The notes: a model not told the origin generated them from the sequence alone. A stretch of 64,000 nt of DNA from GCF_988243305.1 NZ_OZ547136.1; one strand, 5' to 3'. Positions 19,529-32,717 are shown, counted from the stretch's first letter. Program-made: numbers and translations.

Positions 19529-19651
19529 ACTTATTTTTTCGCCAGATTATTTTTCAAAAAATTCCCGTGCATAAAAATTTGAGGAGGCGTTCGGTGCCCG
19601 GCGGGGTCGGGTTTGTCCTGAAAACGCCCCCCACCCCGTCATACAGCCTCA
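19529..19651 (-). other. Putative cos region (GC-rich segment with nested inverted repeats between the HNH-side genes and terS)
   Basis: Non-coding 123 bp containing GGCGTTCGGTGCCCGGCGGGGTCGGGTTTGTCCTGAAAACGCCCCCCACCCCG. The HNH / gap / TerS arrangement is that of HK97-like cos phages. The cleavage site itself cannot be read from the sequence. Confidence 0.35.
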
Positions 19652-19825
19652 TCAGCGATTGCGGAAACATTCCATAACCTCGCGGTCACGGTCGGTTAAT
19701 CGCTTCGCTGTGATGCGTTCTGCGCGTCCTGACGCTTTATCTTTATGCCCTGTTTCCTGTGTCTTCCATGCGTCACGCTGCCTTATAAGTCCACGGATAA
19801 GGCGGTTTTGTTCCCGCTCATTCAT
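19652..19825 (-). CDS. Small basic hypothetical protein (57 aa), start overlapping the HNH stop
   Basis: The ATG lies inside GCTGATGAATGA, overlapping the HNH stop (coupled arrangement). Product MNEREQNRLIRGLIRQRDAWKTQETGHKDKASGRAERITAKRLTDRDREVMECFRNR is Arg/Lys-rich. It is the 3' third of the 134-aa track ORF, whose remainder overlaps HNH. Confidence 0.4.
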   Translation of the reverse strand: MNEREQNRLIRGLIRQRDAWKTQETGHKDKASGRAERITAKRLTDRDREVMECFRNR

Positions 19826-20258
19826 CAGCGTCATACATCCAGTTATTGCGGTTAGCGGACCGTTCTTCCTCTTCACGAAATCCACCTGCGGCACGCTTGC
19901 TTTTTGTTGCCGGATCAAGCCATTTCGTTTTCTGGTTATGACACGCCTGACACAATGGCTGATGGTTCCATTCGGGCCAGAAGAGAACATCATCGCCGCC
20001 ATCGATGGGGATAATGTGATCCACCACCACGGCGGGCGTATATATCCCCTTCTCAAGGCATCGCACGCATAACGGGTTTTTACTCAGATACATGGCGCGG
20101 TATTTGTCCCACTGTCTGGAGTACCCACGCGCGCGGCGGTGTCCTCGTCTGGCATCCTCTGCACGCCATGCCGCCCGCCTGTGCTCCTCACACTTACCGG
20201 ACTTAACGCGCCTGTTACAGCCTGGTTCTGTACATCGTCTTAATGGTTGCCACGGCAT
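19818..20258 (-). CDS. HNH endonuclease (terminase-associated)
   Basis: 146 aa with CxxC...VDHIIP...N...LCxxCH HNH/zinc motifs (CVRC, DHIIPIDGG, CQACHNQKT), adjacent to the terminase genes. Confidence 0.88.
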   Translation of the reverse strand: MPWQPLRRCTEPGCNRRVKSGKCEEHRRAAWRAEDARRGHRRARGYSRQWDKYRAMYLSKNPLCVRCLEKGIYTPAVVVDHIIPIDGGDDVLFWPEWNHQPLCQACHNQKTKWLDPATKSKRAAGGFREEEERSANRNNWMYDADE

Positions 20259-20554
20259 CAGTACACCCCCACATCACGGTAAGCCGTCCAGAGTGCGCCT
20301 ATCGTCATGGGTACGCGCGTTTTTGCGTTATCCGCGACAATCTGGCGATTTTCATACAGGTGAGCGATAAACATCATGCAGCCAATCTTTATGGCTGGCG
20401 TGAACTCCAGCCCGTCATCAAAGCGCCTGCCTATGTGTATCTGGCACGCCTCAAGCGATGCGGCAATGTATCCGCTGATTAACTGGTCTTCATCGTCGCC
20501 ATCGATGCGGCAATGGAGTTTCACTTCTTCCAGGGTGATAAGTTCTTCTGTCAT
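20258..20554 (-). CDS. gp6-like head-tail connector protein
   Basis: 98 aa. MTEELITLEEVKLHCRIDGDDEDQLISGYIAASLEAC... is the typical Phage_connect_1 N-terminus. The stop overlaps the HNH start (TGATG). Confidence 0.8.
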   Translation of the reverse strand: MTEELITLEEVKLHCRIDGDDEDQLISGYIAASLEACQIHIGRRFDDGLEFTPAIKIGCMMFIAHLYENRQIVADNAKTRVPMTIGALWTAYRDVGVY

Positions 20555-20889
20555 TTTTCCGCGCCCTCACGACAAAGAATTTCAAGGCGTGTCCTGGCGG
20601 CATCCGGCAACGGTTGCCCGATGATATTCAGTACACGCCCCGCCAGCGGCCCTGTATTGACCTTTATCCGACTGGTGGCGTTGATGTCCTTCCGGTAGCG
20701 TATCCATATCCTTACCGTTCCAGTCGCCAGCTCTGCACCTGATGAAATGGCCTCCTTGCTGCTGATCATGTTCACGCTTGCCCAGAGTGTGTGACCGTCC
20801 ACCCACGTTTCGAGTATTTCGCCGGTTATATCCCTGGTCTGTTTCAGGGTCTGAATCGTTACCCTGTCACGCAGTCGCCCTATGTTCAT
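20551..20889 (-). CDS. Head-tail joining (head closure/adaptor, gp7-like) protein
   Basis: MNIGRLRDRVTIQTLKQTRDITGEILETWVDGHTLWASV...VRIWIRYRKDI matches the Phage_H_T_join pattern. ATGA overlaps occur at both ends. Confidence 0.8.
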   Translation of the reverse strand: MNIGRLRDRVTIQTLKQTRDITGEILETWVDGHTLWASVNMISSKEAISSGAELATGTVRIWIRYRKDINATSRIKVNTGPLAGRVLNIIGQPLPDAARTRLEILCREGAEK

Positions 20890-22097
20890 TCCGGTTTTTC
20901 TCCCTCGCTGATTTTTACTTCCTGTTTCCATGCCTGGCTGAACTCATCACCACCATCACGCGGGGACAGCCCTTCACGTTCGCGGGCTTCGTTCGGGCAC
21001 ATAACGCCGGATTTGATGCCGCGTTCATAGGTGGCAAAGCGTTCGCCAGGTGTGGCCCGTAACAGGTCCGCGCTGTCAAACTCCACCTGATACCGGATAC
21101 CAGGTACAGGCGAGGCCACCAGCAGGGCGTTTTTTATCTGCTGCTCAAAGTTCGCCAGCCACGGGCGCATCGTCATGGTGAGAAATGCGCGGCTTGCCTC
21201 GCTGAAGTTGCTGTAGGTGCTGTTGCTGTATTCCTGCAAAAAAATCGGCGAGACGTTGAACATTCGGGCGATGTCTTCAATGGTGAAGCGACGGGAGGCC
21301 AGCCATTCGGCATCCTGATTACTCATGCCCAGCTGCTGATAGCTCATCCCCCCTTCAAGGATGGGCGTTTTTCCGGCGTTTCTGGCCCCTTTGTAGCGTT
21401 CCAGTGCGGCTAATGCCTGTTTGCCCTTCACGCCGTCCAGCCATTCGCCTGACGTGATAACCCCTGCCGCCATCATGCCATCACGCATCACGCTCGCGCC
21501 GTGGCGTTGTTGGGCCAGCCCAAGCCCCAGCGATTCGCGGCAGATGGTTACAGGTGAGCGCCCCATAAAACCGTCATCCGTGGAGTAACGAAGGTGGAGA
21601 ACCTCCCACGGTAAATAGTTGCGGGTGTTTCCGGTGTAGGCGTCAGTGATGCAGTAGCGCCAGTTATGATCACCTGTCTGCTCCACGTTCACCGACTGCG
21701 GCGGGTAAGGATGTAAAGCCACCGGAAAACCATCACGCCCCCACTGAATCACCGCATAAGCATTACCGTTTAACAGGCAGTGGCGGATCATCATTCGCTT
21801 AAACTGGTAGGGAGTCTGCCACGCGTTCGGGCGCTCGTTGAGGATGTGATCGACCGGATGAGAATCAAGCCACTCGCGGGCCTCCTTCCCCTTCTCATTG
21901 CGTACCAGGTACAGGTAACACGGCATGGTAGCCACCGCCTCAGAGATGACCGTCACGGCGTTCATGACGGCGGGCAGTGATTCCGCTGTCCCCGATGATA
22001 CGTACTCACCCGCCCCCGTGTTCGATGTGCCAGCCAGCGCCATAAACTCATCAAGCGTCATGCTGCGCTGCTCTTTTTTTCTTCTGAAAGGCCACAT
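20886..22097 (-). CDS. Portal protein, HK97 family
   Basis: 403 aa with typical HK97-type portal features (..ESLPAVMNAVTVISEAVATMP.., C-terminal acidic tail). It lies next to the protease. Confidence 0.88.
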   Translation of the reverse strand: MWPFRRKKEQRSMTLDEFMALAGTSNTGAGEYVSSGTAESLPAVMNAVTVISEAVATMPCYLYLVRNEKGKEAREWLDSHPVDHILNERPNAWQTPYQFKRMMIRHCLLNGNAYAVIQWGRDGFPVALHPYPPQSVNVEQTGDHNWRYCITDAYTGNTRNYLPWEVLHLRYSTDDGFMGRSPVTICRESLGLGLAQQRHGASVMRDGMMAAGVITSGEWLDGVKGKQALAALERYKGARNAGKTPILEGGMSYQQLGMSNQDAEWLASRRFTIEDIARMFNVSPIFLQEYSNSTYSNFSEASRAFLTMTMRPWLANFEQQIKNALLVASPVPGIRYQVEFDSADLLRATPGERFATYERGIKSGVMCPNEAREREGLSPRDGGDEFSQAWKQEVKISEGEKPE

Positions 22098-22098
22098 A

Positions 22099-22671
22099 TC
22101 ACACCCCCGCTAAATCCACCCACCAGCGGCGATTATCCGCACGCGGCATTTTTTCGGGGTGCTGCTCATACAGGGAACGGCGGGCCAGCTCCACGCCGGA
22201 ATCGGGGTAAGCCGGTACCGATGTAACGGTAATTTCGTACAGTTCCGCCACCAGCACGGTGCGCACGCATGGATCTGTTGTGGTATCCCATACATCCTTA
22301 CGGGAGCGAAAGCCAAAGCTCATCCCCGAGATGTCCCCACGCTTAACCAGTTCGATAACGTCGCGCCCTGTACTGGTATCCGGTGGGGTCAGTTCAAAGC
22401 GTAACCCTGTTTCGTCCTCTTCCAGTTTCAGCGTGCCGGAACGGGTGCGCCCCAGTAACATGCTGTGGTCATGCTCATACAGGCCGCGAACGTCATTACC
22501 CGCCGCAAGCCACTCAGTAAACGCCCCCCGCTGGAATTTTTCGTAAAACTCCCCCCATAGCAGTTCTGAAAGCTTATCCCAGCGAACAACGTAGCCCGTC
22601 AGCGTACCGGCTCCGCTGGTAGTGATTTCCGATGACCGGATTTCCATACTCTTCATAATTTTTTCACCCAT
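22099..22671 (-). CDS. Prohead maturation protease, HK97 (S78) family
   Basis: 190 aa. ..GYVVRWDKLSE...RGLYEHDHSMLLGRT...GDISGMSFGF.. is the pattern of HK97 gp4-like proteases. It sits between the MCP and portal genes. Confidence 0.85.
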   Translation of the reverse strand: MGEKIMKSMEIRSSEITTSGAGTLTGYVVRWDKLSELLWGEFYEKFQRGAFTEWLAAGNDVRGLYEHDHSMLLGRTRSGTLKLEEDETGLRFELTPPDTSTGRDVIELVKRGDISGMSFGFRSRKDVWDTTTDPCVRTVLVAELYEITVTSVPAYPDSGVELARRSLYEQHPEKMPRADNRRWWVDLAGV

Positions 22672-22710
22672 AAAACACTAAAGGGGCTTTTAAGCCCCTT
22701 CTGTATGCTG

Positions 22711-23868
22711 TTAATCGTCGTCCTGTGGCAGTTCCAGAATCTTGATCGCGTTCGAATCCACCACGCCACCGCCTAAATATTTCTGCGTGAAAATTTTGAT
22801 GAAGCCCGGCTCTGTGAGGTTGTCCGGTCTGGTGCGAACACCTGTTTCGTGATCAACAATGTAGTAACCGCGTTTGAAGTCACCCAGGGCAATAACGTTA
22901 TCCGGCATAAACTCCAGATATTCGACCGGAAGGCCCAGTAACGTATCAGGATCACCCGCCTGTAAACGGTCGCGCCAGATGTAATCACCGTTCGCGTTCT
23001 TCACCTTCTGAAGTTTTGCCGCCGTCGTGGAGTTAACCACCCAGACCGCGTTTTTGCGGTATTTTTTACGTAATGCAAATTTCAGGTCGATCAGCGGGTC
23101 CGCAGATGTCCACGCCAGAGATTCGGAAGGTTTAATTACCTGCAACGTACCAAAATCACGCTCTTTGTCGTTCTTCTCTGCACGGGGTACGGATAAAAAA
23201 CCTTTTGCTTTTTTGTCACCGTCGCCCACAACCAGATCGCTTTCTTCGGTTTCCGTGAAGGTGTCGCCAATCTCGCCCGTCAGCCATGAAAGGATGTCCA
23301 CATCGGAAAAATCCACGATTTCCTGTGTGGTGCGCGGGTACGCATAGACCGGATACAGCTTAATGCTCACCTCGTTAATCTGCGGGGTGCTGGTCTGTTC
23401 GCGTGTCTTACCCTCTTCACCGTGGTTAACGGTCGCACCGCCAGCGGAAACAAGCTGCTTAAACTCGTTGCTGCTGATTTTCTTCACGGTACAGATGCGG
23501 CGCATGGTGGACTCATCCGCCAGCATTCGCATGATTTCGGTGTTCAGTTCGGGGATAACGGTATAACCACCATCAGCGGGAACGCCTGTACTTAATGCGC
23601 GGGTTTCACCTGTCAGAATGTAGTTGCGTAGTTCTGCGGGGTCAGTGGTCTGGCTGCTTTTACCTGGCTTGCTGCGCTCTTCGTCTGCAATGGCTTCAAG
23701 GCGGGAAATGTCTTTATCGAGGGATTCAGCTTTAGCGCGTAATTCGTCAAATTTTGCGCCCTCAGCATCGTTAAGACTGCGGTTTTCTTTTTCCGCGTTC
23801 TCCAGCATGTCGCGCATCTGATTTTTAATGGCGGTTTTCTGCTGGCGTAATTCGATTATTCTCGGCAT
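22711..23868 (-). CDS. Major capsid protein, HK97 fold, with N-terminal coiled-coil delta/scaffold domain
   Basis: ATG at 23868 (MPRIIELRQQKTAIKNQMRDMLENAEKE...) is preferred over the TTG at 23913. The product is 385 aa with a coiled-coil N-terminus followed by a typical HK97-family body. Confidence 0.88.
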   Translation of the reverse strand: MPRIIELRQQKTAIKNQMRDMLENAEKENRSLNDAEGAKFDELRAKAESLDKDISRLEAIADEERSKPGKSSQTTDPAELRNYILTGETRALSTGVPADGGYTVIPELNTEIMRMLADESTMRRICTVKKISSNEFKQLVSAGGATVNHGEEGKTREQTSTPQINEVSIKLYPVYAYPRTTQEIVDFSDVDILSWLTGEIGDTFTETEESDLVVGDGDKKAKGFLSVPRAEKNDKERDFGTLQVIKPSESLAWTSADPLIDLKFALRKKYRKNAVWVVNSTTAAKLQKVKNANGDYIWRDRLQAGDPDTLLGLPVEYLEFMPDNVIALGDFKRGYYIVDHETGVRTRPDNLTEPGFIKIFTQKYLGGGVVDSNAIKILELPQDDD

Positions 23869-24083
23869 AAAAAAAAGTCCTGGGGTTAAGTAAGGAACTC
23901 CAGGACGCGGCAAACACTCAACCGTTTTTCATAAGGAAATCAGCAATCGCACCGATCGTTTTCCCGCCTGGTAATGAATATTGGCGAGCACATTAACAGG
24001 CGGGAAAGTGGCCCCAGCGTCCTGGCACCACGGGCGAGAATAATCATGATTCAGTTCGGGTAAAATATGCCGATCCGCTCAGT

Positions 24084-24110
24084 GAACAACGTGGAACAAC
24101 CACGAACAAA
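24084..24110 (+). promoter_or_regulatory. Three 10-bp-phased GAACAA units upstream of the capsid operon
   Basis: GAACAAcgtgGAACAAccacGAACAAataa lies 216 bp upstream of the MCP ATG, between the terminator at 24121-24150 and the operon. A 23-nt stretch matches 30289-30311 (inverted) with 2 mismatches. Confidence 0.55.
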
Positions 24111-24120
24111 TAATTTACAA

Positions 24121-24150
24121 AAAATAACAAAAAGCCGGATTGCTCCGGCT
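24121..24150 (-). terminator. Rho-independent terminator (minus strand)
   Basis: On the minus strand, AGCCGGAgcaaTCCGGCT is followed by TTTTTGTTATTTTTT. It lies 20 nt after the stop of the 74-aa gene. Confidence 0.8.
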
Positions 24151-24169
24151 GTATGTGCTGTATGGGTGC

Positions 24170-24394
24170 TCAGTCTCTGATCCCTTTCAGAAATTCTATC
24201 AATGCATCTGTCTGTTCAGGATTTACTGCCAGCATTTCACCGGATAGCGCGCAACGAACAAAACCATGATGATCCTTTTCAATCAGTGCGCCCGTCTCCA
24301 GGAATGCGCGGTAATCATTGATGCTCATCGTCTCCATGTTGTCAGCATGGTATTTATCACGCTGTTTTAATATCTCATCAAATTTCATCGGCAT
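24170..24394 (-). CDS. Hypothetical protein (74 aa), moron-like unit bracketed by twin terminators
   Basis: ATG at 24394 is preceded by AGAGGAAAAAACA. Product is MPMKFDEILKQRDKYHADNMETMSINDYRAFLETGALIEKDHHGFVRCALSGEMLAVNPEQTDALIEFLKGIRD. I recognise no family. Confidence 0.6.
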   Translation of the reverse strand: MPMKFDEILKQRDKYHADNMETMSINDYRAFLETGALIEKDHHGFVRCALSGEMLAVNPEQTDALIEFLKGIRD

Positions 24395-24488
24395 TGTTTT
24401 TTCCTCTGTTGTGTCTGTTTGTTTCAGATAGTAACTATGCCTGACCGTGACGAAAACCCGGTAATGCGCCATACCGTTTCAACTGGTG

Positions 24489-24513
24489 CAAAAAAAGCCG
24501 GATTTCTCCGGCT
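24489..24513 (-). terminator. Rho-independent terminator (minus strand), near-duplicate of 24121-24150
   Basis: On the minus strand, AGCCGGAgaaaTCCGGCT is followed by TTTTTTTG, downstream of the PerC-like gene. Confidence 0.8.
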
Positions 24514-24563
24514 GTGTGATTAGCTGTCCTGGTAATTGCGCCATATTTCATCACCAGCACCAT

Positions 24564-24791
24564 CTATCCCCATTTCGGCATAAGTGCGATCGACTGCCTT
24601 TTCAGGTCTCCGTAATTATCCGGTGGCTCCGGTGGCCTCTGTGCCTTCCTGGAACATTCCAGCCGTCGCATCGTGATGTGATGCCGTTCCTTGTCTGTCT
24701 CCACCAGCAGCATGACTTCACCCCATCGCGCCGACGCCCTCCGGTAAAATCCTTTAGCCTCGAGTTCCTCCGCTATGCGGTCATGTACCAT
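24564..24791 (-). CDS. PerC-family (PerC/Pch-like) transcriptional regulator
   Basis: ATG at 24791 is preceded by GGGGGTGAGG, right after the ssb stop. The 75-aa product MVHDRIAEELEAKGFYRRASARWGEVMLLVETDKERHHITMRRLEC... resembles the PerC N-terminal signature (..AE.LE.KG.WRRAA.RW..). Confidence 0.65.
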   Translation of the reverse strand: MVHDRIAEELEAKGFYRRASARWGEVMLLVETDKERHHITMRRLECSRKAQRPPEPPDNYGDLKRQSIALMPKWG

Positions 24792-24801
24792 CCTCACCCC
24801 C

Positions 24802-25212
24802 TCAGAACGGAATACCGTCACCGTAAGGGTCATCGCCTCCCGCTGGTGGCTGATTACCCTGTGTGCCTGTGGTTTTGCGTCTGTTCCCGCCAGGACGTGC
24901 CGCACGGGCACTGATTACGCTGTCTGCAATAACCTGCCAGCCCTGCCGCGTTTCTCCGTTCTGTCCGGTCCACTGGCTTACCTGCATCGTGCCGGATACG
25001 CTGGCAACATCGCCTTTTTGATGTTTAGCCAGGAAGTCGGCCTGTTTGCCAAATGCGATGACCGATAACCATAACGTCGCCTGTCCGTCCTGTGCCTGGC
25101 TGCATGGCAAAGATACCGCCATACGCGCCAGCGTCATCGGTGTGCCCTTGCTGGTCTGTTTTACCTGCGGGTCGTCCACCAGCCGCCCGTAAGCGGCTAT
25201 CTGTGCCGTCAT
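24802..25212 (-). CDS. ssb: Single-stranded DNA-binding protein
   Basis: 136 aa with an OB-fold-like N-terminus, a Gly/Pro/Gln-rich linker and a C-terminal acidic tip ..GGDDPYGDGIPF, the canonical SSB tail. Confidence 0.85.
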   Translation of the reverse strand: MTAQIAAYGRLVDDPQVKQTSKGTPMTLARMAVSLPCSQAQDGQATLWLSVIAFGKQADFLAKHQKGDVASVSGTMQVSQWTGQNGETRQGWQVIADSVISARAARPGGNRRKTTGTQGNQPPAGGDDPYGDGIPF

Positions 25213-25460
25213 AATTCCACCTCTCCGGTTTTAACGTTGATGGTTGTTACCTGTTCCGCTTCGGCAATCTCCCGTTCTGTCAGCGTGGCAAAGTTTGCCG
25301 CCGCCGTGGTCATGAATGCGCTTATCAGGTCGGGATGTTCCTTCGCGTATCCTTCCCGCGTGTGGCGGTCTATCGTTCTGATTGCCACCTTTAAAGCGTG
25401 CTCAGTCATGTCTAACGCTTTATATTTTGGCTCTGTTCTGTCTCTGCGTTTTTGGGTCAT
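25209..25460 (-). CDS. Hypothetical protein (83 aa)
   Basis: ATG at 25460 (MTQKRRDRTEPKYK...) with GAGAGG upstream is preferred over 25490, which would overlap the iterons. ATGA overlap with ssb. Confidence 0.55.
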   Translation of the reverse strand: MTQKRRDRTEPKYKALDMTEHALKVAIRTIDRHTREGYAKEHPDLISAFMTTAAANFATLTEREIAEAEQVTTINVKTGEVEL

Positions 25461-25472
25461 TTCTCGCAACCT

Positions 25473-25662
25473 CTCACTTTTTCGCCTCACTTTTTCAAGC
25501 GTCTCACTTCGTCGCAGTTGGGATTTTCGGTTTTTCTATGTGTGTGTTTCATAAGTATTTTTTTACCCCTCACTTTTGAGGATGTATACAGGTCGAAAAG
25601 TGAGGGAGAGCGGGCTAATTTTGGCCCTCTTTCTATCCCCCTCGCTTTTGCTCCTCACTTTT
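25473..25662. repeat. Iteron array (CCTCACTTTT x7, one inverted) with AT-rich core: putative origin of replication
   Basis: Copies lie at 25473, 25485, 25502, 25568, 25596 (inverted), 25640 (1 mismatch) and 25653. They flank a T-rich stretch at 25520-25565, directly downstream of the helicase gene. Confidence 0.6.
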
Positions 25663-27061
25663 ATAGCGGCGCTACATCATCCCCATCGATACGAATAACC
25701 CCATCTTTTTCCAGCTTGTACAGCCAGCGCCGGAAGTTTTTCATTTCATACCCCAGTTTTTTCATGTCATCACGTAACAGCGGGATCGTGCACTTGTCGC
25801 CGTTCTGTGTGCGTGAACGGATGCACCCCCATAGCGCGGTATGGTTTTCCGTCTTGTTCCCTGCCTCCTCGATGCGCTCCAGTTCAACAGGAGGGCGCGG
25901 ATCATCCACCACTACCAGCGACGTGATTAATTCACCGTCAGCGTCGGTAAAAAGCTCCACCACGCGTAAGTCATATGCGGCTTCTTTGAGTTCCTCCGCG
26001 TCCTTCATTTTGGTGCATGAGATAACCAGCGCTTCGCTTCCTGCGTCCTCCCTGCGTATCCGGTATTCAGCATCCAGCGAAGCACGAAATGCACTGGAAC
26101 CGCGCGCGCCTTTCGTCTCATCCTTGCCGGAATGGTGAACCACCAGCACCGTGGCCCCTGTGCGTCGTTTCAGTTCGTCACAACCACGGATAAACGCCCC
26201 CATATCACGGGAATCATTTTCATCATTCCCACCAAAGCAACGCGCCAGCGTATCCAGAATAATCATGCGTACAGGTTTACCCGTTTCCCGCTCCACCTGA
26301 CGGGCAGCGATAACCATTTCATCAACATCAAGCGGGGCAGCCGGAAAGATGGGGCGGTTTACCAGATACAGATTTTTCACCTGCTCATCGTGCACAACCT
26401 CCCAGGCTTTTACACGACGCGGAACACCTATACCGCCTTCACCAACCACATAGAGAACCGCACCATGTGCAACCCTGCGGCCTCCCCACTGGCGACCAGT
26501 GGCAACATGGCACGCCCACGATCCGGCAAGGAATGATTTATAGGACCCGCTAGCCCCGTATATGCTGCATAGCGATACCGCCGGAATAATCCCCTTAACC
26601 ACGTAATCCAGTTGCGTGTCGTATCCGGTAGATCCAACGCTCATCGGTAGCGTGGTTTTTCGCTGGTGGTTTTTTTCTTCCACCGGCTCTTTCCCGCGCA
26701 CCCGTTCCAGGTATTCGCGCCAGTTCTCCCGCATATGGCTGTGCATCCCTTCGGGGTAATAATTCGCATCAGTTACACCCGCCGCCGCCAGCTTGTGCGC
26801 AATGGCATTAATATTTGATGGCCTGATGTGGCCTGCCTTGTACAGCCGGACACAATAGCGCCCCTCGTCGATGATTCTCAGGTCTGCCAGTTCATCCAGT
26901 TGATCATCAGCCAGCACAACGGGAGGCACATTATCGCCAGCCAGTCGCCCGTCCTGTTCCTGCCACTGTTTCGCATGTGCCCAGGCATCACTACCCGCAA
27001 AAATAATGACTTCGGTCATCTTGTCGTAAGGCTGTTTTTTTAAGTTCGGTGCGCTTTTCAT
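25661..27061 (-). CDS. Replication protein: RepA/AAA_25 (RecA-like) helicase-type ATPase with extra N- and C-terminal domains
   Basis: 466 aa. Features are P-loop-like GASGSYKS, Walker B MIILDT, LVVHHSGKD and ARGSSAF motifs typical of RepA-like helicases. The C-terminal part looks like a winged-helix domain. Confidence 0.75.
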   Translation of the reverse strand: MKSAPNLKKQPYDKMTEVIIFAGSDAWAHAKQWQEQDGRLAGDNVPPVVLADDQLDELADLRIIDEGRYCVRLYKAGHIRPSNINAIAHKLAAAGVTDANYYPEGMHSHMRENWREYLERVRGKEPVEEKNHQRKTTLPMSVGSTGYDTQLDYVVKGIIPAVSLCSIYGASGSYKSFLAGSWACHVATGRQWGGRRVAHGAVLYVVGEGGIGVPRRVKAWEVVHDEQVKNLYLVNRPIFPAAPLDVDEMVIAARQVERETGKPVRMIILDTLARCFGGNDENDSRDMGAFIRGCDELKRRTGATVLVVHHSGKDETKGARGSSAFRASLDAEYRIRREDAGSEALVISCTKMKDAEELKEAAYDLRVVELFTDADGELITSLVVVDDPRPPVELERIEEAGNKTENHTALWGCIRSRTQNGDKCTIPLLRDDMKKLGYEMKNFRRWLYKLEKDGVIRIDGDDVAPL

Positions 27062-27357
27062 TTCTTGCCCCTGAATCCGTTAATCATGGTTTTCAGCTTC
27101 TGGATGTTTGCCCGTGCCCTGGCGTTGCTGGTGGGCACGTTATGCGGCGCGGTCTGTACCAGAGAAAAATCACGCCGGAACTGATAAACAGGCATCACGC
27201 AATCATATTCGTAACCTTCACGGCGGTAGGTTACGCGCCGTTCTTCCACGCCCTTAATCATTACCGTGCCGCCGTACTGGTCGCGGTAAATATCACCGCG
27301 CGTAAATTTAGGGTGAGTGTTGCCACTGGCAGTTAAGCCAGAATATTTAAGTTTCAT
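27058..27357 (-). CDS. Hypothetical protein (99 aa; possibly DUF4222-like)
   Basis: ATGA overlap with the helicase start. GDIYRDQYGGTVMIKGVEERRVTYRREGYEYDCVMPVYQFRRDF resembles a small prophage family, recalled only loosely. Confidence 0.55.
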   Translation of the reverse strand: MKLKYSGLTASGNTHPKFTRGDIYRDQYGGTVMIKGVEERRVTYRREGYEYDCVMPVYQFRRDFSLVQTAPHNVPTSNARARANIQKLKTMINGFRGKK

Positions 27358-27362
27358 TATTT

Positions 27363-27596
27363 TTATTCTCCGGTGTGCTGTTCTTTATATCTGTCGTGCA
27401 ATAGATCTATTTCTTGCAGTTCCATTATTACAGGCTCAAGAAGCGTTATTAATGCCGTGGCAATTCTTGATTTTTGTTTGTCGCGTTCATTGTCGCCAAG
27501 TGTTTCAAGCCATATGCGCAATATTTCCAGCATGTTTTCACTGTGAGAAAGTGCAAGAAATACGCGGTCTATTGTTTCGTGGTAAATATCACGCAT
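27363..27596 (-). CDS. Hypothetical protein (77 aa)
   Basis: Tightly packed minus-strand ORF (MRDIYHETIDRVFLALSH...) whose start lies 2 nt after the upstream stop. Confidence 0.5.
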   Translation of the reverse strand: MRDIYHETIDRVFLALSHSENMLEILRIWLETLGDNERDKQKSRIATALITLLEPVIMELQEIDLLHDRYKEQHTGE

Positions 27597-27597
27597 A

Positions 27598-27819
27598 TTA
27601 ATCCCCGTCCGTCGTTTTTCTTAAAATAACCTCTGTCACGAAATCAGCATAATCGGCGGCGATATTCAGTACATCAAGCCCCGTTGATTTATATTCTCTC
27701 GTGGAAAGTAAGAAAAAAGCCGCTCTAATAAGTTCTGGCATTGACGAAAGCGCATCAGCCGCATCATCAGGAACGCCGGAAAATTCCTGTTTCAGGGAAT
27801 TAAAACGATCATCACGCAT
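27598..27819 (-). CDS. Hypothetical protein (73 aa)
   Basis: ATG at 27819 lies 2 nt downstream of a G9 run (minus strand). Acidic helical protein, MRDDRFNSLKQEFSGVPDD... Confidence 0.5.
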   Translation of the reverse strand: MRDDRFNSLKQEFSGVPDDAADALSSMPELIRAAFFLLSTREYKSTGLDVLNIAADYADFVTEVILRKTTDGD

Positions 27820-28034
27820 AACCCCCCCCCATTTTCACAATCAGCAACAAGAATATTTTTAGCGTCATTCAGCGACCGCGTTGCGATGTATCGGATACAT
27901 TCCAGGGCGAACTGTGTCCGGTCTTTCTGTTCTTCTCCCTGCGCAAGCTCTGCAGTGCATTCAATATCGATAAGCGCGTGCATCAGCGTAGTGAGCGCGG
28001 CGGCTGCTGCGTCCGGTGTGGTTTTATTGCACAT
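27792..28034 (-). CDS. Hypothetical protein (80 aa)
   Basis: ATG at 28034 is preceded by AGGAGG (MCNKTTPDAAAAALTTLMHALIDIECTAELAQGEEQ...). It overlaps the icd-like 3' end by 11 nt. Confidence 0.55.
   Translation of the reverse strand: MCNKTTPDAAAAALTTLMHALIDIECTAELAQGEEQKDRTQFALECIRYIATRSLNDAKNILVADCENGGGLCVMIVLIP
27822..27830. repeat. Homopolymeric C9 (plus) / G9 (minus) tract
   Basis: Read directly: a CCCCCCCCC a. It lies in the 3' end of the 80-aa ORF and in the RBS position of the 73-aa ORF. Confidence 0.95.
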
Positions 28035-28224
28035 GGCACACCTCCTGACGAATACGGGCGGCGAATACAGCAACACAACCGGACGGGCAACGGCTACGCG
28101 CTTCGCGTTCCGTCCAGGCGGTTACGTGGATGATTTGAGATTCTCCGGCACTTAGTGCCAGAAAACGCCACACAAAGGCCGTTTGTGTGTGTATAAGGCG
28201 TGGTATATGATTTACGGCAACCAT
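28024..28224 (-). CDS. Icd-like (host cell-division inhibitor family) small protein
   Basis: ATG at 28224 is preceded by AGGAG. The 66-aa product ..FVWRFLALSAGESQIIHVTAWTEREARSRCPSGCVAVFAARI.. fits the Icd-like pattern (aromatic core, EREAR, FAAR). It is the only credible part of the 344-aa track ORF. Confidence 0.6.
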   Translation of the reverse strand: MVAVNHIPRLIHTQTAFVWRFLALSAGESQIIHVTAWTEREARSRCPSGCVAVFAARIRQEVCHVQ

Positions 28225-28312
28225 AACGGCTCCTAGTTTACGTTGTTGGTTAGACGCCCCGTATGTGTTCCCAGCACTGCGGGGCGTTGATTTTTGTGTA
28301 ATGGCAAGTACA

Positions 28313-28358
28313 ATGGTAATTACCATGTAGGTATAGTAATGAAGGGTAATTACCATGT
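28313..28358. promoter_or_regulatory. Two copies of GGTAATTACCATGT exactly 30 bp apart (first within perfect 14-bp palindrome ATGGTAATTACCAT): putative operators in a divergent control region
   Basis: Copies at 28315-28328 and 28345-28358; the second covers the start codon of the Arc-like gene. A TATAGT -10-like hexamer at 28332-28337 lies between them. Confidence 0.6.
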
Positions 28359-28528
28359 CAACACCATTAGAAAAACGTTCGCCTCCATACCAAATGCGAT
28401 TACCGGAAGACTTCAGAGCGCAGCTAGAAGAAGCAGCTAAGGCCGATGGCGACACATCTTTAGCCACTTGGATTAAACGCGTTCTCCGCAAAGAATTACA
28501 GCAACGCGGCATAGAGCCAAAAGGTTGA
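28355..28528 (+). CDS. Arc/Mnt-family ribbon-helix-helix DNA-binding protein (57 aa)
   Basis: Read manually because it is below the track cutoff: MSTPLEKRSPPYQMRLPEDFRAQLEEAAKADGDTSLATWIKRVLRKELQQRGIEPKG. The beta-strand (YQMRLP) plus two helices parallel P22 Arc (PQFNLRWPREVLDLVRKVAEENGRSVNSEIYQRV). It is one of only two plus-strand genes in the island. Confidence 0.7.
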   Translation: MSTPLEKRSPPYQMRLPEDFRAQLEEAAKADGDTSLATWIKRVLRKELQQRGIEPKG

Positions 28529-28549
28529 ATTTCAGAAGGAGATAAAATA

Positions 28550-28702
28550 ATGAACTGGCTGTTACATACCCTCCCAGGTCGCATTCTCATTGCACTAATT
28601 ATTTTATGGATTTTGTACCAATTCGGTTTTTTCGATTCGCTTTGGAAGCCTGACTGTTCCGTTAACCCTGGCGATGTACTGAAAGGCTGTAAAAATGGCT
28701 GA
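28550..28702 (+). CDS. Small single-pass membrane peptide (50 aa)
   Basis: AGGAGA RBS lies 6 nt upstream of the ATG. Product MNWLLHTLPGRILIALIILWILYQFGFFDSLWKPDCSVNPGDVLKGCKNG* has one TM helix and a two-Cys C-terminal tail. It is followed by two hairpins (28705-28719, 28735-28749). Confidence 0.6.
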   Translation: MNWLLHTLPGRILIALIILWILYQFGFFDSLWKPDCSVNPGDVLKGCKNG

Positions 28703-29057
28703 TCAGGGTTACTCCCTGTAATGCCTTTAACTGGCCCTCTTAAAGAGGGTTGGTTATCTTCGCAGCTCTCTACGTTTTTCGTCGGAACCTCTGAACCTAA
28801 GCAGTGTTGATGTTCAGGAGAACCCGAATACTGTTCGTGTTCGTTGCTCGCCAATTCTCGCGTTTCGCGATAATCAAAATGATTCAATGGGTTGAGATGT
28901 CCGTACGTTAAACGTACGCGGTTAATTTGTACATGCGAATTTCGTCGGCTCAAATTCTGCGCAACCCTGCTTGAGTTATGCAAATAGCACGCGGCTAACT
29001 CACAAGGATTTGAGCGCCCCCAAACGGGGGAGCGCAAAATTTTAGGCATAAGACGCA

Positions 29058-29771
29058 TCAGCGAATCTCCAACACTGACGATGAAGTGATCAGGCTGGCG
29101 AACGCATCCATACGGCGGGCAACCTCACGCACCGCATCGCCTGGACTCATGTCATTACGCACCGCCTCATTAAAGGCCGCCTGTTCGATTTTCTGCATCA
29201 CTACCAACAGCCCCAATTGCTGTTCGTCTGCGGTACCGCGTTCACCATCAGACAAACCAGCCACGCGGTTTTCAGCGCGGGCCAGATTGATGTAATGGTG
29301 CCGTTGTGCGCCCAGAGCTTTTAATCTGTCGCGGCTTTCGTGATAGCCAGGCAGGTACTCACGGCGGATAGGTTCTGCGGCGCGGCGCTTAGTGAATGCC
29401 TTCGTAACATCCAGTTTGAACTGGTTAATACGCTCAGGATCACGCCCTCGGGTGATACGCAGCAGATAGTCGAGCTGCGGCTCATTCAGCAGATAACTAA
29501 TCTCAGGACGCCCACGCTTTCGGCCGGATTTTCCCGATTTCAAATCGGTTAATTCCTTGAGTGACTGACGAGGCAGTGATCCCAGCTCGCGCAATCTGCT
29601 CTGGTGCGATTTAATCGTCGCGCTTAAGCTTTCATGTTGTATTCCGGCTCGCTCTGAAATAACGCGGGAATCGATACGCGGCTCCGATTTGTGATTAATT
29701 AAAATATCGCTCTGGCTGGCTTCAGGGCGAACGAATCCCCGCCCACGTTCTGGCGTATATTCAATCTTCAT
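29058..29771 (-). CDS. Phage regulatory protein, tentatively Rha/antirepressor-like
   Basis: 237 aa. The N-terminal region IDSRVISERAGIQHESLSATIKSHQSRLRELG resembles the Rha-type HTH region. The functional assignment is weak. Confidence 0.6.
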   Translation of the reverse strand: MKIEYTPERGRGFVRPEASQSDILINHKSEPRIDSRVISERAGIQHESLSATIKSHQSRLRELGSLPRQSLKELTDLKSGKSGRKRGRPEISYLLNEPQLDYLLRITRGRDPERINQFKLDVTKAFTKRRAAEPIRREYLPGYHESRDRLKALGAQRHHYINLARAENRVAGLSDGERGTADEQQLGLLVVMQKIEQAAFNEAVRNDMSPGDAVREVARRMDAFASLITSSSVLEIR

Positions 29772-29828
29772 GGTTATAGCTCTGTGTTCAGATGATTGAT
29801 GTGTGGCGGCTGCGTGCCGCCAGCGTGA

Positions 29829-30017
29829 TTAATGAACTGCCTTGCAGCTATCCTTCCAGGCCAGAACCTCGGATAAAGACCAGCCAACGGAACGACCGCC
29901 AAGTTTACGACGTGATGGGAATTGTCCGGCCTTTTCCAGGCGGTAGCGACACGTACGGCTAAGGCCGGTTAGTTTTTCGCATTCTTTTTCACGTATAAAC
30001 CGATCAGTGCTTAACAC
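29829..30017 (-). CDS. alpA: AlpA-family regulator / excisionase-like protein
   Basis: 62 aa with a GTG start after AAAGGGGG. ..IREKECEKLTGLSRTCRYRLEKAGQFPSRRKLGGRSVGWSLSEVLAW is the classic AlpA/Phage_AlpA signature. Confidence 0.88.
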   Translation of the reverse strand: MLSTDRFIREKECEKLTGLSRTCRYRLEKAGQFPSRRKLGGRSVGWSLSEVLAWKDSCKAVH

Positions 30018-30166
30018 TATTGCCCCCTTTCGTTTCTTAAAGAGTCATCAGGTGTCTTATTGTGTCGTATTGTTCCCGCTAGAGTGATAAATGGCAAATA
30101 CTGAGGATGTATGATTTACAGAAAATGAAACAGTAAGAATAAAATCTTTTAAATTCATGTTAATAC

Positions 30167-30200
30167 AAAGGCATAAAATATTGTTTCATGCCTTTTTTCT
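30167..30200 (+). terminator. Plus-strand intrinsic-terminator-like hairpin in the int-alpA spacer
   Basis: AAAGGCAT-13 nt-ATGCCTTT is followed by TTTCT on the plus strand, antisense to the island's main transcription direction. On the minus strand it lacks a T-run. Confidence 0.45.
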
Positions 30201-30288
30201 CGCTCTTTAAAGAGTGATTCGCTAGTGTATAAAAAACCAGTAACGCATTAAAAATCAGCTACTTATAAATCCGTACGCTTTTTCGCCT

Positions 30289-30342
30289 CTTGTTCGTAGT
30301 TGTTCCACATTGTTGCTCATTGTTGCACGTTGTATCTGTTCG
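30289..30342 (-). promoter_or_regulatory. Five 10-bp-phased TGTT units (complement of the AACA/GAACAA units) between int and alpA
   Basis: tgttcgtagt tgttccacat tgttgctcat tgttgcacgt tgtatctgtt. These have inverted orientation relative to the copies at 16582, 24084 and 31678. Confidence 0.55.
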
Positions 30343-30381
30343 CATATACAGTATGCGCATACTGAAAAAACACGAAAAAAA

Positions 30382-31611
30382 TTATTTTCTTCTGGCTACT
30401 GGTAGCGTGGTTACGTTTTCATGTGTTCCCGCCAGTATCCCTAACCGCTCCGTCCACATATCCAGCGCATTGCGTTTAGCATCCAGATAACGGGAATGAT
30501 TATAAACTCGCTGCATTCCTGGCATCTGGTGGCCTGTAAGCTGCTCCACGACATGCGGATCAACGCCTAAATCGTTCAGCATGGTTGTAAAGGTGCGCCG
30601 GATGTCATGCAGTGACCAGTGAGGATGATTAAGCCTCCTGTGCGCTAATCTTCCATACTGCGATACGCTGGCCTCCTGTTTCACTTCCCCCAGCAATAAG
30701 CCCGTGTGCCTGTTCTGCTCCACCAGCTGCGTGACGAACGGCAGGATCGCTTCCGGTATGGGCCGGAATATTGCGACCTTCGTTTTGCTGTGCTCCTTCG
30801 GAACGGTCCATAGCATTTCCGTAAAATCCCACTCCCCGATCTCCGATAACCTCAGTTCTACCGTTCTGGCTCCGAAGACAATCAGGAGGCGGATTAACGC
30901 GACGTAGTAAGGGGAGAATATTTTTTTGTCCAGTGCCTGCAATAATTCGCCAAGTTCTTTGTTACTTAAGACACGTTCGCTTATATCCGGTTTTTTCCCA
31001 ACGTCCGCCACGTTCAGATCGTCCAGAACGTTGCTGATTGCATAGCGCCGCCTACGGCAGAACTTAAGCGCCTGTTTGCACGCCTGTAGCACGAATCCGG
31101 CAGTAACAGGCGTTCGCTTTGCCACCTGGTCAAAACAGGCCAGCCAGTGCCGTAGCTCGCATTTATCCAGCGGCATAGCACCAATCTGCTGTATTACGTG
31201 ATTATTAAGTCGCCTTTTCAGGGCGATATAATCCACGCGGTTTTCCTTTACGTAATACTCAAGCCAGTAGGTGAGCGCATCGCCAACCGTTACGGGCTTT
31301 AACGCTTCCTGTACGGTGTAATTCATCTCATGACGTGGATTTTTCCCCTCAGCCAGCCATGTGCGACACTGTGCGGCTTTTTCCCTGGCTGCTTTCAGGC
31401 TCAGATCAGGATAACTTCCCAGCTTAATGCGTTCGGGTCGTGTCTCCCTTCCCGTTCCGGCCCTGTATGTGAAATACCAGGTCAATTTCCCTGATGTTAA
31501 ATATTTCACGCTCAGGTTTCCGCCATCACTATAAAACGTGTTTTTCTCCGCTGGCTTACCATGAAGTTTCCTTAGCAAGGTATCGCTCAGTTTGTTCATT
31601 GCTCTGCTCAC
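30382..31611 (-). CDS. int: Tyrosine recombinase/integrase, P4-type (DUF4102 arm-binding N-terminus)
   Basis: 409 aa. The N-terminal ..LSVKYLTSGKLTWYFTYRAG..IKLGSYPDLSLKAAREKA.. is typical of P4-like integrases. Catalytic residues lie in ..HDIRRTF.. and ..HQMPGMQRVYNHSRY. GTG start at 31611 (SD GAGGGGG), or ATG at 31599. Confidence 0.92.
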   Translation of the reverse strand: MSRAMNKLSDTLLRKLHGKPAEKNTFYSDGGNLSVKYLTSGKLTWYFTYRAGTGRETRPERIKLGSYPDLSLKAAREKAAQCRTWLAEGKNPRHEMNYTVQEALKPVTVGDALTYWLEYYVKENRVDYIALKRRLNNHVIQQIGAMPLDKCELRHWLACFDQVAKRTPVTAGFVLQACKQALKFCRRRRYAISNVLDDLNVADVGKKPDISERVLSNKELGELLQALDKKIFSPYYVALIRLLIVFGARTVELRLSEIGEWDFTEMLWTVPKEHSKTKVAIFRPIPEAILPFVTQLVEQNRHTGLLLGEVKQEASVSQYGRLAHRRLNHPHWSLHDIRRTFTTMLNDLGVDPHVVEQLTGHQMPGMQRVYNHSRYLDAKRNALDMWTERLGILAGTHENVTTLPVARRK

Positions 31612-32713: not shown

Positions 32714-32717
32714 AGGG

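What the first reader, a model, noticed from the sequence alone, without database searches (positions are those of the whole stretch)
25473..25662. Iteron array and AT-rich core next to the helicase gene: candidate island origin of replication
Seen: the decamer CCTCACTTTT occurs seven times in 190 bp. Three tandem copies lie at 25473-25510. An inverted pair CCCTCACTTTT...AAAAGTGAGGG lies at 25567-25606, and two more copies at 25640-25662, the last covering the helicase stop codon. They surround a T-rich stretch (25520-25565). Established: in SaPIs and PICIs the ori lies directly downstream of the pri/rep genes and consists of iterons flanking an AT-rich region melted by the Rep helicase. Inference: this is the island ori, recognised by the C-terminal domain of the 466-aa protein.
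Basis: partly seen in the sequence, partly recalled or inferred. Interest (0 to 1): 0.5.

Follow-up and report, generated by a model that had tools for sequence, protein, structure and literature searches.

The report
Satellite island replication origin with iterons
The 200 bp after the helicase gene of this E. coli phage-satellite island is very probably the island's replication origin, because its short repeats change in step with one amino acid of the helicase's DNA-binding tail; this is a well-supported example of a known kind of origin, not a new kind.

Summary
The repeats are real. The rep/downstream-gene intergenic region (25461-25660) holds seven copies of (C/T)CTCACTTTT: 4 exact, 2 with one mismatch, 1 with two. 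They form a distal trio, a 55-bp A+T-rich tract, an inverted pair around TGTATACA, and two proximal copies reaching the rep stop codon. The island (about 16.47-31.8 kb, inserted in tqsA) has the gene content of a capsid-forming PICI. Rep (25661-27061, minus strand) is a RecA-fold RSF1010-RepA/DnaB-like helicase with a confidently predicted C-terminal winged helix. About 90 related loci across Enterobacterales keep the same layout, but the repeat sequence tracks the residue before the predicted recognition helix: K-N-F with GTGAGG, K-H-F with GTGGG, K-K-F with GTGGGGG, RKSF with GTGCGGC. Two E. coli allele pairs have C-terminal domains that differ only, or nearly only, at N/H442; in both, every repeat switches A/G. 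The repeats follow rep, not the neighbouring genes. I conclude that this is the Rep-dependent ori, with confidence about 0.8; nothing here was tested experimentally. The general design is already published for SaPIs and E. coli PICIs, so this is a new member of a known kind. The possibly new parts are the SF4-type motor and the one-residue/one-base specificity pattern.

The parts
25661..27061 (-). rep: 466-aa initiator-helicase. It has an N-terminal 125-aa domain without a Pfam match, an AAA_25 RecA-fold SF4 core, and a C-terminal winged helix.
   Evidence: Pfam AAA_25, E=2.4e-43. Best PDB relative is the RSF1010 RepA hexameric helicase 1g8y, by sequence and by fold. RefSeq name 'helicase RepA family protein'.
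25664..25864 (-). Coding region for the C-terminal winged-helix domain (aa 400-466), the predicted iteron reader.
   Evidence: AF2: H405-419, H426-435, H443-452, strands 456-459 and 462-465, pLDDT 83-93. The domain-only model has mean pLDDT 86, and its Foldseek hits are nearly all winged-helix domains: LexA, DtxR/IdeR, BlaI, MarR-type, SelB WH, MCM8 WH. The divergence peak between alleles starts here and runs through the ori.
25736..25738 (-). Codon AAC = Asn442, the N-cap of the predicted recognition helix and the candidate specificity residue.
   Evidence: Read directly from the sequence. N442 goes with GTGAG iterons and H442 with GTGGG. L003 vs L088/L089 have identical C-terminal domains except this residue (CAC vs AAC), and all their iterons are switched.
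25653..25662 (-). Proximal iteron 1 (rep-sense AAAAGTGAGG), overlapping the rep stop codon.
   Evidence: Exact match. A copy at this position relative to the stop codon is conserved in relatives.
25640..25649 (-). Proximal iteron 2 (AAAAGCGAGG, one mismatch), 13 bp from iteron 1.
   Evidence: The 12-13 bp spacing of the proximal pair is conserved in relatives.
25596..25606 (+). Inverted iteron, the only copy in the opposite orientation. It is the rep-proximal arm of the palindrome.
   Evidence: I2: 11/11 complementary. One inverted copy at about +65-70 from the stop codon is seen in nearly all relatives.
25583..25590 (.). TGTATACA core at the centre of the inverted iteron pair. It is a candidate nucleation or melting point.
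   Evidence: A TGTATACA / TATATAC / CATATATAC-type core lies between the inverted iterons in most loci of all iteron-specificity classes. These columns are invariant in the four E. coli alleles.
25567..25577 (-). Iteron forming the second arm of the palindrome (rep-sense AAAAGTGAGGG).
25512..25566 (.). A+T-rich tract, the candidate DNA-unwinding element.
   Evidence: 33% G+C. The least stable 40-mer, 25526-25565, is in the least stable 1% of the island. An A-rich tract is present at the same place in relatives.
25472..25511 (-). Distal iteron set: 25502-25511 (degenerate, TCTCACTTCG), 25485-25494 (exact) and 25472-25481 (one mismatch). Spacings are 17 and 13 bp. The last copy overlaps the Shine-Dalgarno sequence GAGAGG of the next gene.
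   Evidence: Distal sets of 2-4 direct copies at +150 to +205 are found in relatives.
25209..25460 (-). Downstream 83-aa gene of unknown function. It marks the boundary of the ori and is not its partner.
   Evidence: RefSeq start in the identical module. The same gene follows unrelated initiators that have unrelated iterons (L005-L007). Similarity to those loci ends at about its start codon (H14-H16).

Best explanation
25461-25660 is the vegetative replication origin of a capsid-forming phage-inducible chromosomal island. Its cognate initiator is the protein encoded immediately upstream.

Proposed mechanism (inferred):
- After induction and excision, Rep is made from the AlpA-controlled operon.
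- Its C-terminal winged helix reads the 10-11-bp iteron AAAAGTGAGG. Asn442, at the start of the recognition helix, contacts the A of GTGAG.
- Rep protomers bind the inverted pair around the TGTATACA core and the direct copies on both sides.
- This concentrates enough subunits to assemble RecA-fold hexameric helicase rings on DNA that opens at the TATA core and the adjoining 55-bp A+T-rich tract.
- Because this Rep has no primase domain, priming is left to host DnaG or to another island or helper factor.

Shown by computation: the repeats and their layout, the conservation of that layout, the winged-helix prediction, the residue/base covariation, and the linkage of the iterons to rep.

Inferred only: binding, melting, helicase loading and replication.
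For: - Position and layout. The whole rep/next-gene intergenic region is filled by iterons around an A+T-rich tract. This is the published PICI/SaPI design. It was functionally tested for EcCICFT073 (PMC6092414) and for SaPI1 and SaPI5 (PMC9371898).
- Conservation. In about 75 loci from Xenorhabdus, Serratia, Pectobacterium, Morganella, Erwinia, Pantoea, Kosakonia, Klebsiella and others, the copies sit at nearly the same offsets from the rep stop codon: about 0-15 and 23-28; an inverted copy at 65-70 and a direct one at 95-100; then 150-205.
- Concerted change. Every copy in a locus carries the same variant, and the variant tracks the K-X-F motif of the C-terminal domain. K-N-[FL]: 32 loci, 160 TGAGG against about 9 TGGGG. 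K-H-[FL]: 16 loci, about 85 TGGGN against 3 TGAGG. K-K-F: 28 loci, 123 TGGGG. RKSF: 8 loci, 44 TGCGG.
- Near-isogenic pairs. L003 (H) vs L088 (N), and L099 (H) vs L090 (N). The last ~225 nt of rep are about 95% identical, the decisive codon is CAC vs AAC, and all 6-7 iterons are G vs A.
- Recognition rules. N with A and H/K with G matches the usual amino-acid/base hydrogen-bond preferences (my own knowledge, not tested here).
- Cassette structure. Divergence between E. coli alleles peaks from about 25860 to 25460, which is the C-terminal-domain coding region plus the ori. It is flanked by near-identical DNA.
- Iterons follow rep. The same downstream genes with D5-type or DUF927-type initiators have GGTAGACA or GCGGGTTA repeats instead. 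The same rep family with different downstream genes keeps its own iterons.
- Episomal relative. A K. pneumoniae 16,971-bp circular record deposited as a plasmid has cf-PICI-like gene content (integrase, capsid, head-tail adaptor, terminases). It carries a rep of this family and an ori of the same layout.
- No competing signals. No sigma-70 promoter match, no rep-sense terminator and no significant fold.
Against: - No experiment supports it: binding, melting and Rep-dependent replication are all untested here.
- Linkage caveat. The C-terminal-domain coding region and the iterons are adjacent, so co-inheritance is expected even without function. Locus counts are also not phylogenetically independent.
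- Exceptions. Three N-type loci have mixed A/G iteron sets (L092, L093, L097), so the N/A rule is not absolute. These may be recombinant or decaying origins.
- A few relatives show no clear iterons (L075, L076, L036).
- This Rep lacks the Zn-ribbon/Toprim primase found in its long relatives, so it is not a self-sufficient replicon by sequence.
- The distal iteron overlaps the ribosome-binding site of the next gene, so a regulatory side-function cannot be excluded.
Confidence: 0.8

Rival explanations
1. The repeats are Rep-binding sites whose main role is regulatory rather than initiation. Rep bound there could act as a roadblock or translational control of the downstream operon (the 83-aa gene, ssb, perC and the packaging genes), or could control copy number by handcuffing. 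In that case initiation would occur elsewhere.
For: - The distal iteron overlaps the Shine-Dalgarno sequence of the next gene.
- Transcription apparently reads through the region, because there is no rep-sense terminator and no promoter match.
- Iterons of plasmids are known to serve in copy control as well as in initiation (general knowledge; PMC4980987).
Against: - No other iteron cluster or comparable A+T-rich/iteron structure exists in the island. Apart from the cluster itself, the near-matches to the decamer are all outside the island.
- The inverted pair plus TATA core plus A-tract layout is conserved whatever the downstream gene is and however far away it lies: 200 to about 480 bp in L088-L097.
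- The experimentally tested PICI and SaPI origins have this same position and design (PMC6092414, PMC9371898).
Confidence: 0.1
2. The repeats are recognised by a different protein, either an island, helper-phage or host regulator or the packaging machinery (a cos/pac-type site). Their association with rep would then be positional only.
For: The region lies between the replication module and the late or accessory genes. Binding is untested.
Against: - The repeat sequence tracks a residue in the Rep C-terminal winged helix, down to single-codon differences.
- It does not track the DUF4222 gene, the 83-aa gene, SSB, PerC or the packaging genes. These occur with unrelated iterons in L005-L007.
- The identical rep-ori cassette (99.7%) sits in an island with a different packaging module (L001).
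Confidence: 0.05
3. The repeats are a chance or slippage-derived low-complexity feature with no function.
For: The motif is T-rich and the third distal copy is degenerate.
Against: - Six matches at one mismatch or fewer fall in 190 bp, against about 0.011 expected.
- Offsets are conserved across families of Enterobacterales.
- All copies change in concert.
Confidence: 0.01

Closest known systems
Replication origins of Gram-negative PICIs (EcCICFT073 pri-rep-ori; Fillol-Salom et al. 2018, PMC6092414)
   Same: - The ori lies immediately 3' of the initiator gene.
- It has two sets of short iterons flanking an A+T-rich region.
- The island type and host are the same, with an AlpA-controlled rightward operon.
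- The paper states that several E. coli PICIs share this layout and that four Pri-Rep allelic variants exist.
   Different: - The tested EcCICFT073 initiator is called pri-rep and is described there as distantly related to P4 alpha. The Rep here is a RecA-fold AAA_25 (RSF1010 RepA/DnaB-like) helicase without a primase domain.
- I could not see Fig. 2a, so I cannot say whether this allele's iterons were already drawn.
- No functional test exists for this allele in what I could read.
SaPI ori with Rep/PriRep self-loading initiator-helicases (Ubeda et al., cited in PMC9371898; Qiao et al. 2022, PMC9371898)
   Same: - A C-terminal winged-helix domain reads 5-6-bp-core iterons placed directly after the rep ORF.
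- An A+T-rich centre is present.
- Iterons occur in opposite orientations.
- The logic is that of an initiator and helicase in one protein.
   Different: - SaPI Reps are SF3 or SF6 AAA+ motors with 3'-5' polarity (PMC9371898). This motor is of the SF4/RecA-fold type.
- Here only one copy is inverted, and it forms a palindrome around a conserved TATA-like core.
- There is no sequence homology of the proteins or the iterons.
T7 gp4-like primase-helicases and the RSF1010 (IncQ) RepA helicase
   Same: - The motor domain family is shared (AAA_25; 1g8y is the best PDB match).
- Long relatives of this Rep carry Zn_Ribbon_Prim + Toprim_3 in front of the same core, as in gp4.
   Different: - gp4 and RSF1010 RepA have no origin-reading domain.
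- RSF1010 uses a separate initiator (RepC) on 20-bp iterons and a separate primase (RepB) (my own knowledge).
- Here a winged helix is fused to the helicase, and neither RepC nor RepB is present.
Satellite phage P4 alpha protein with ori and crr
   Same: A satellite of enterobacterial phages whose multifunctional replication protein binds short repeated sequences through its C-terminal part (PMC6092414 discussion; my own knowledge).
   Different: - P4 alpha is a primase plus SF3 helicase.
- P4 needs two separated repeat clusters, ori and crr. Here there is a single cluster.
Iteron plasmid origins (pSC101, R6K, F, RK2; PMC4980987)
   Same: Repeated initiator-binding sites lie next to an A+T-rich unwinding element, and the initiator is a winged-helix reader.
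   Different: - Plasmid iterons are about 17-22 bp.
- Their origins carry DnaA boxes.
- The helicase is host DnaB, loaded with the help of DnaA and DnaC.
- Here the iterons are 10-11 bp at 13-17-bp spacing, there is no DnaA box and no GATC, and the initiator is itself the helicase.

Membership tests
PICI/SaPI-type origin | Located immediately 3' of the replication initiator (rep or pri-rep) gene of the island | tested here: met
   The iterons run from the rep stop codon (25661-25663) to the ribosome-binding site of the next gene.
PICI/SaPI-type origin | Two sets of short iterons flanking an A+T-rich region | tested here: met
   Distal set 25472-25511. A+T-rich tract 25512-25566 (33% G+C, least stable 1% of the island). 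Then the palindromic pair and the proximal set, 25567-25662.
PICI/SaPI-type origin | At least two iterons on each side of the A+T-rich region pointing in opposite directions (as stated for SaPIs in PMC9371898) | tested here: inconclusive
   At least two copies lie on each side, but only one copy (25596-25606) is inverted. The distal set and the copy at 25567-25577 have the same orientation.
PICI/SaPI-type origin | The initiator carries a C-terminal winged-helix domain that determines iteron specificity | tested here: met
   This holds at the level of prediction and covariation only. Winged helix at aa 400-466. The residue-442 class tracks the iteron base.
PICI/SaPI-type origin | Rep binds the iterons, and the rep-ori segment drives autonomous replication | not testable with these tools
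   There is only circumstantial support. A related element with cf-PICI-like gene content was deposited as a 16,971-bp circular 'plasmid'.
Capsid-forming PICI (cf-PICI) | int, alpA and a replication module, plus its own capsid, protease, portal, connectors, HNH, TerS and TerL, and no tail or lysis genes; size about 15 kb | tested here: met
   Pfam hits for all of these. The island spans about 16.47-31.8 kb between the two halves of tqsA. Helper-dependent induction was not tested.
SaPI Rep / P4 alpha type initiator-helicase (SF3, D5-like, or SF6 Cch-like) | An AAA+ SF3 or SF6 motor domain (D5_N/Pox_D5/DUF5906 or DUF927) | tested here: not met
   Only AAA_25 (RecA-fold) is found. The D5 and DUF927 domains are found instead in the alternative PICI initiators L005 and L006.
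Iteron plasmid origin (RepA/Pi/RepE/TrfA type) | 17-22-bp iterons, DnaA box(es), and an initiator that recruits host DnaB | tested here: not met
   The unit is 10-11 bp at 13/17-bp spacing. There is no DnaA box at one mismatch or fewer. The initiator is itself a helicase.
IncQ (RSF1010) replicon | RepC initiator on 20-bp iterons, RepB' primase with ssiA/ssiB, and RepA helicase | tested here: not met
   Only the RepA-like core is shared. No RepB- or RepC-like gene is among the island ORFs scanned.

The most novel reading that the evidence does not exclude
A single residue at the N-cap of the recognition helix (N442 / H / K / S) sets which origin this initiator-helicase fires: GTGAG, GTGGG, GTGGGGG or GTGCGGC. 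Satellites would then make new, mutually orthogonal replicons by a one-codon change plus a concerted change of all iterons, exchanged as a 400-bp cassette of C-terminal domain plus ori. The family would also be a RecA-fold (SF4, gp4/DnaB-like) helicase that loads itself at a palindromic, TATA-centred origin. That would be a bacterial counterpart of the SV40 T-antigen/papillomavirus E1 logic, built on the opposite-polarity motor. It would raise the question of how a 5'-3' ring helicase is placed on the correct strands without a loader.
Probability: 0.4. Interest if true: 0.6.

Novelty: new member of a known kind. Interest (0 to 1): 0.4.

Why it matters
- Annotation. It fixes the ori and its cognate initiator for a widespread replication module of enterobacterial phage satellites. 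One search found matches in 1,630 of 5,426 complete E. coli genomes, and 582 of them carry most of this module.
- Modularity. The same rep-ori cassette sits in islands with different packaging modules.
- A testable specificity rule. The N/H442 to A/G pattern could explain how several PICIs coexist in one cell without replicon cross-talk. It could also be used to build orthogonal, inducible mini-replicons.
- A mechanistic question. It points to an SF4-type self-loading initiator-helicase, a combination that the SaPI and P4 paradigms do not cover.

Tried and rejected
- Promoter or operator. The sigma-70 scan of 25100-26000 found no promoter. The only terminator-like hairpin in the intergenic region (25612-25627) is on the strand opposite to rep.
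- Structured RNA or DNA. Folding the rep-sense strand gives z = -1.48, which is not significant. Rfam found nothing in 14000-33000.
- DnaA-dependent plasmid-type origin. No DnaA box and no GATC.
- A second repeat cluster like P4 crr. None in the island.
- Downstream 83-aa protein or upstream DUF4222 protein as the iteron reader. Rejected, because both occur with unrelated iterons next to unrelated initiators.
- Identity with EcCIEDL933. Rejected. That island is at another locus and has a DUF927 initiator with GCGGGTTA repeats (L006).
- Phage collection. No phage carries this module.
- Plasmid collection. Most hits look like chromosome fragments; only the 16,971-bp Klebsiella circle is informative.
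- Whole-protein AF2 model. Mean pLDDT is only 63, so only the ATPase-core and C-terminal-domain conclusions were used.
- Literature. Searches for this allele's ori (DUF4222, AAA_25, cf-PICI papers) gave no specific description.

Full report
**Observation**

The plus strand of 25461-25660 is the complete intergenic region between two minus-strand genes. These are the 466-aa ORF 25661-27061 and an 83-aa gene whose ATG is at 25458-25460.

It contains seven copies of (C/T)CTCACTTTT:
- Four exact decamers: 25485, 25568, 25596 (minus strand) and 25653.
- Two copies with one mismatch: 25472 and 25640.
- One copy with two mismatches: 25502.

The cluster is far beyond chance. Shuffles give 3.7 matches at one mismatch or fewer per 64 kb, which is about 0.011 per 190 bp, against 6 observed. 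The 9-mer core occurs only once elsewhere in the window.

The 11-bp inverted pair (25567-25577 / 25596-25606) is perfect. The last copy overlaps the TAA stop codon of the ORF. The tract 25512-25566 is 33% G+C and contains the least stable 40-mer of the neighbourhood, which falls in the least stable 1% of the island.

**Context**

The window is E. coli chromosome; pntAB, mdtIJ, ydgD and asr flank the element.

A roughly 15.3-kb element is inserted inside tqsA. The 5' part of tqsA starts at 16331 and the remainder is at 31809-32693. Imperfect direct repeats lie at 16537-16612 and 31633-31708.

All genes of the element are on the minus strand:
- integrase (30382-31611) and AlpA (29829-30017);
- a Rha-like protein and several small ORFs;
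- DUF4222 (27058-27357) and Rep;
- the iteron region;
- the 83-aa ORF, SSB and PerC;
- HK97-type capsid, S78 protease, portal, head completion and connector proteins, HNH, TerS and TerL.

There are no tail or lysis genes. This is the gene content of capsid-forming PICIs (10.1101/2022.09.08.507074).

It is not the prototype EcCIEDL933. That island sits at another locus and carries a DUF927 initiator.

**The protein**

- Rep has one Pfam domain, AAA_25 (E=2.4e-43).
- Its only PDB relatives are the RSF1010 RepA hexameric helicase, and by fold also DnaB and Rad51/RadA. These are SF4/RecA-fold motors.
- AlphaFold predicts residues 400-466 with pLDDT 83-96 as helix-helix-helix-hairpin.
- Foldseek places this domain among winged-helix DNA-binding domains: LexA, DtxR/IdeR, BlaI, MarR-type, SelB WH and MCM8 WH. 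TM-scores are 0.55-0.68 and probabilities about 0.9. E-values are weak (0.13-0.4), as is usual for 75 residues.
- Longer relatives (about 700 aa; Xenorhabdus, Serratia and others) have Zn_Ribbon_Prim + Toprim_3 in front of the same core. They are therefore gp4-like primase-helicases with the same C-terminal domain.
- The window's protein lacks the primase. Instead it has a 125-aa N-terminal domain without a Pfam match.

**Comparative test 1: do the repeats follow rep or its neighbours?**

E. coli islands with the same downstream genes (the small hypothetical gene and SSB, 92-94% nucleotide identity) but other initiators have different repeats in the same place:
- D5-type primase-helicase: GGTAGACA / GGTAGATA.
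- DUF927/Cch-like: GCGGGTTA, 11 copies.

Conversely, loci with a rep of this family but different downstream genes (a ProQ-like gene or a 257-aa ORF) keep iterons of this family. DUF4222 precedes all three initiator types. The repeats therefore belong to rep.

**Comparative test 2: is the layout conserved?**

In 80 loci from one genome per species and 16 further E. coli, Salmonella and Enterobacter alleles, the copies lie at nearly fixed offsets from the stop codon:
- two direct copies at about 0-15 and 23-28;
- an inverted copy at about 65-70, facing a direct copy at about 95-100;
- an A-rich tract;
- 2-4 direct copies at about 150-205.

Between the facing copies there is a TGTATACA / TATATAC-type core in most loci of every specificity class. 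In the window it is at 25583-25590.

**Comparative test 3: does the repeat sequence track the winged helix?**

It does. The motif K-X-F lies immediately before the predicted recognition helix. Sorted by that motif:

| Motif | Loci | Iteron cores counted |
|---|---|---|
| K-N-[FL] | 32 | 160 TGAGG, about 9 TGGGG |
| K-H-[FL] | 16 | about 85 TGGGN, 3 TGAGG |
| K-K-F | 28 | 123 TGGGG (as GTGGGGGA) |
| RKSF | 8 | 44 TGCGG |

The cleanest cases are near-isogenic pairs:
- L003 vs L088/L089. The C-terminal domains are identical except H vs N at position 442.
- L099 vs L090. The C-terminal domains differ at 442 and at only four other positions.

In both pairs the last ~225 nt of rep are about 95% identical, the codon is CAC vs AAC, and every one of the 6-7 iterons is GTGGG vs GTGAG. 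The window carries N442 (codon 25736-25738) and GTGAG.

Asn with adenine and His/Lys with guanine fit the usual hydrogen-bond preferences; this is my own knowledge and was not tested here.

Sliding identity between the E. coli alleles shows a divergence peak from about 25860 to 25460. That span is the C-terminal-domain coding region plus the ori, flanked by near-identical DNA. This is what one expects for a specificity cassette.

**Caveats**

- The C-terminal-domain coding region and the iterons are adjacent, so linkage alone produces some association.
- Locus counts are not phylogenetically independent.
- Three N-type loci have mixed A/G sets (L092, L093, L097).
- A few relatives show no clear iterons (L036, L075, L076).
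- No binding or replication data exist for this allele in anything I could read.

**Other readings**

- No sigma-70 promoter match, no rep-sense terminator, no significant single-strand fold and no Rfam hit.
- No DnaA box or GATC, and no second iteron cluster in the island.
- A regulatory side-role is possible, because the distal copy overlaps the Shine-Dalgarno sequence of the next gene. However, the layout is kept in loci where the next gene is different and up to about 480 bp away.
- A K. pneumoniae 16,971-bp circular record deposited as a plasmid has cf-PICI-like gene content, a rep of this family (RKSF class) and an ori of the same layout, including TGTATACA. This is circumstantial evidence that such modules sustain an episome.

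**Mechanism (inferred)**

1. Rep protomers bind the iterons through the winged helix.
2. The facing pair around the TATA core nucleates assembly, and the flanking direct copies raise the local concentration.
3. The DNA opens at the TATA core and the adjoining A+T-rich tract, and the RecA-fold rings are loaded.
4. Priming must come from DnaG or another factor, because this allele has no primase.

**Comparison with what is known**

The design (iterons around an A+T-rich region directly 3' of rep, read by a C-terminal winged helix of an initiator-helicase) is established:
- for SaPIs (PMC9371898 and the work cited there);
- for E. coli PICIs, where the rep-ori of EcCICFT073 supported plasmid maintenance (PMC6092414).

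The differences here are:
- the motor class, SF4/RecA-fold rather than SF3/SF6;
- the absence of a primase;
- the single inverted copy forming a TATA-centred palindrome;
- the explicit residue/base covariation.

I could not view Fig. 2a of PMC6092414, so this allele's iterons may already have been drawn there.

**Verdict**

This is a new, well-documented member of a known kind. Interest is moderate (0.4), mainly for the testable one-residue specificity rule and the SF4-type self-loading initiator.

Noticed in passing
window 16331-16470 and 31809-32693: The island is inserted inside tqsA (the AI-2 exporter gene) and splits it after roughly 45-50 codons. Imperfect 76-nt direct repeats (76% identical) lie at 16537-16612 and 31633-31708, near the two ends.
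   Followed up: partly
window 26687-27061 (Rep aa 1-125): The N-terminal 125-aa domain has no Pfam match. Its DNA is 72-85% identical to the start of the D5-type, DUF5906-type and DUF927-type initiator genes of other E. coli PICIs. One N-terminal module is therefore shared by three unrelated helicase classes, always behind a DUF4222 gene. Its function is unknown; one possibility is recruitment of a primase or another partner.
   Followed up: partly
L001 (NZ_CP027544.1 707087-726987): The same rep-ori cassette (99.7% identical over 1.9 kb) sits in a different island, between phoQ and roxA. That island has a capsid/decoration/TerS packaging module instead of the full cf-PICI head module. The replication module is therefore exchanged between satellite types.
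   Followed up: partly
L100 (CP018459.1, K. pneumoniae, 16,971 bp, circular): A record deposited as a plasmid has cf-PICI-like gene content: integrase, a DNA-binding protein, a rep of this family, capsid, head-tail adaptor, TerS and TerL. It also has a gene annotated as 'tape measure protein'. It looks like an excised satellite captured as an episome.
   Followed up: partly
L092, L093, L097: These are hybrid origins. The Rep alleles are N-type but the iteron sets are mixed GTGAG/GTGGG. In L093 the four rep-proximal copies are A-type and the two distal copies are G-type. This suggests recombination breakpoints inside the ori or relaxed specificity of the Asn form.
   Followed up: no
window 28024-29058: A 344-aa minus-strand ORF has no Pfam hit and a composition unlike a typical protein. 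It lies between the Rha-like gene and the small ORFs upstream of DUF4222. The stretch also holds two near-identical 17-nt palindromic motifs, AA(T/G)GGTAATTACCATGT, at 28312-28328 and 28342-28358. It may be non-coding regulatory DNA.
   Followed up: no
window 16581-16615, 24085-24129, 31677-31711: A motif AACAACGTGGAACAA recurs near both island ends and twice in tandem at 24085-24129, upstream of the capsid gene (D1). It could be a binding site for the integrase arm domain, for AlpA, or for packaging.
   Followed up: no
window 24129-24155 and 24492-24518: Two copies (93% identical) of a G+C-rich hairpin-containing 27-mer, AAAAAGCCGGAT..TCCGGCTGT, flank the 100-aa ORF 24170-24472 (D4). They look like terminator or REP-like hairpins.
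   Followed up: no
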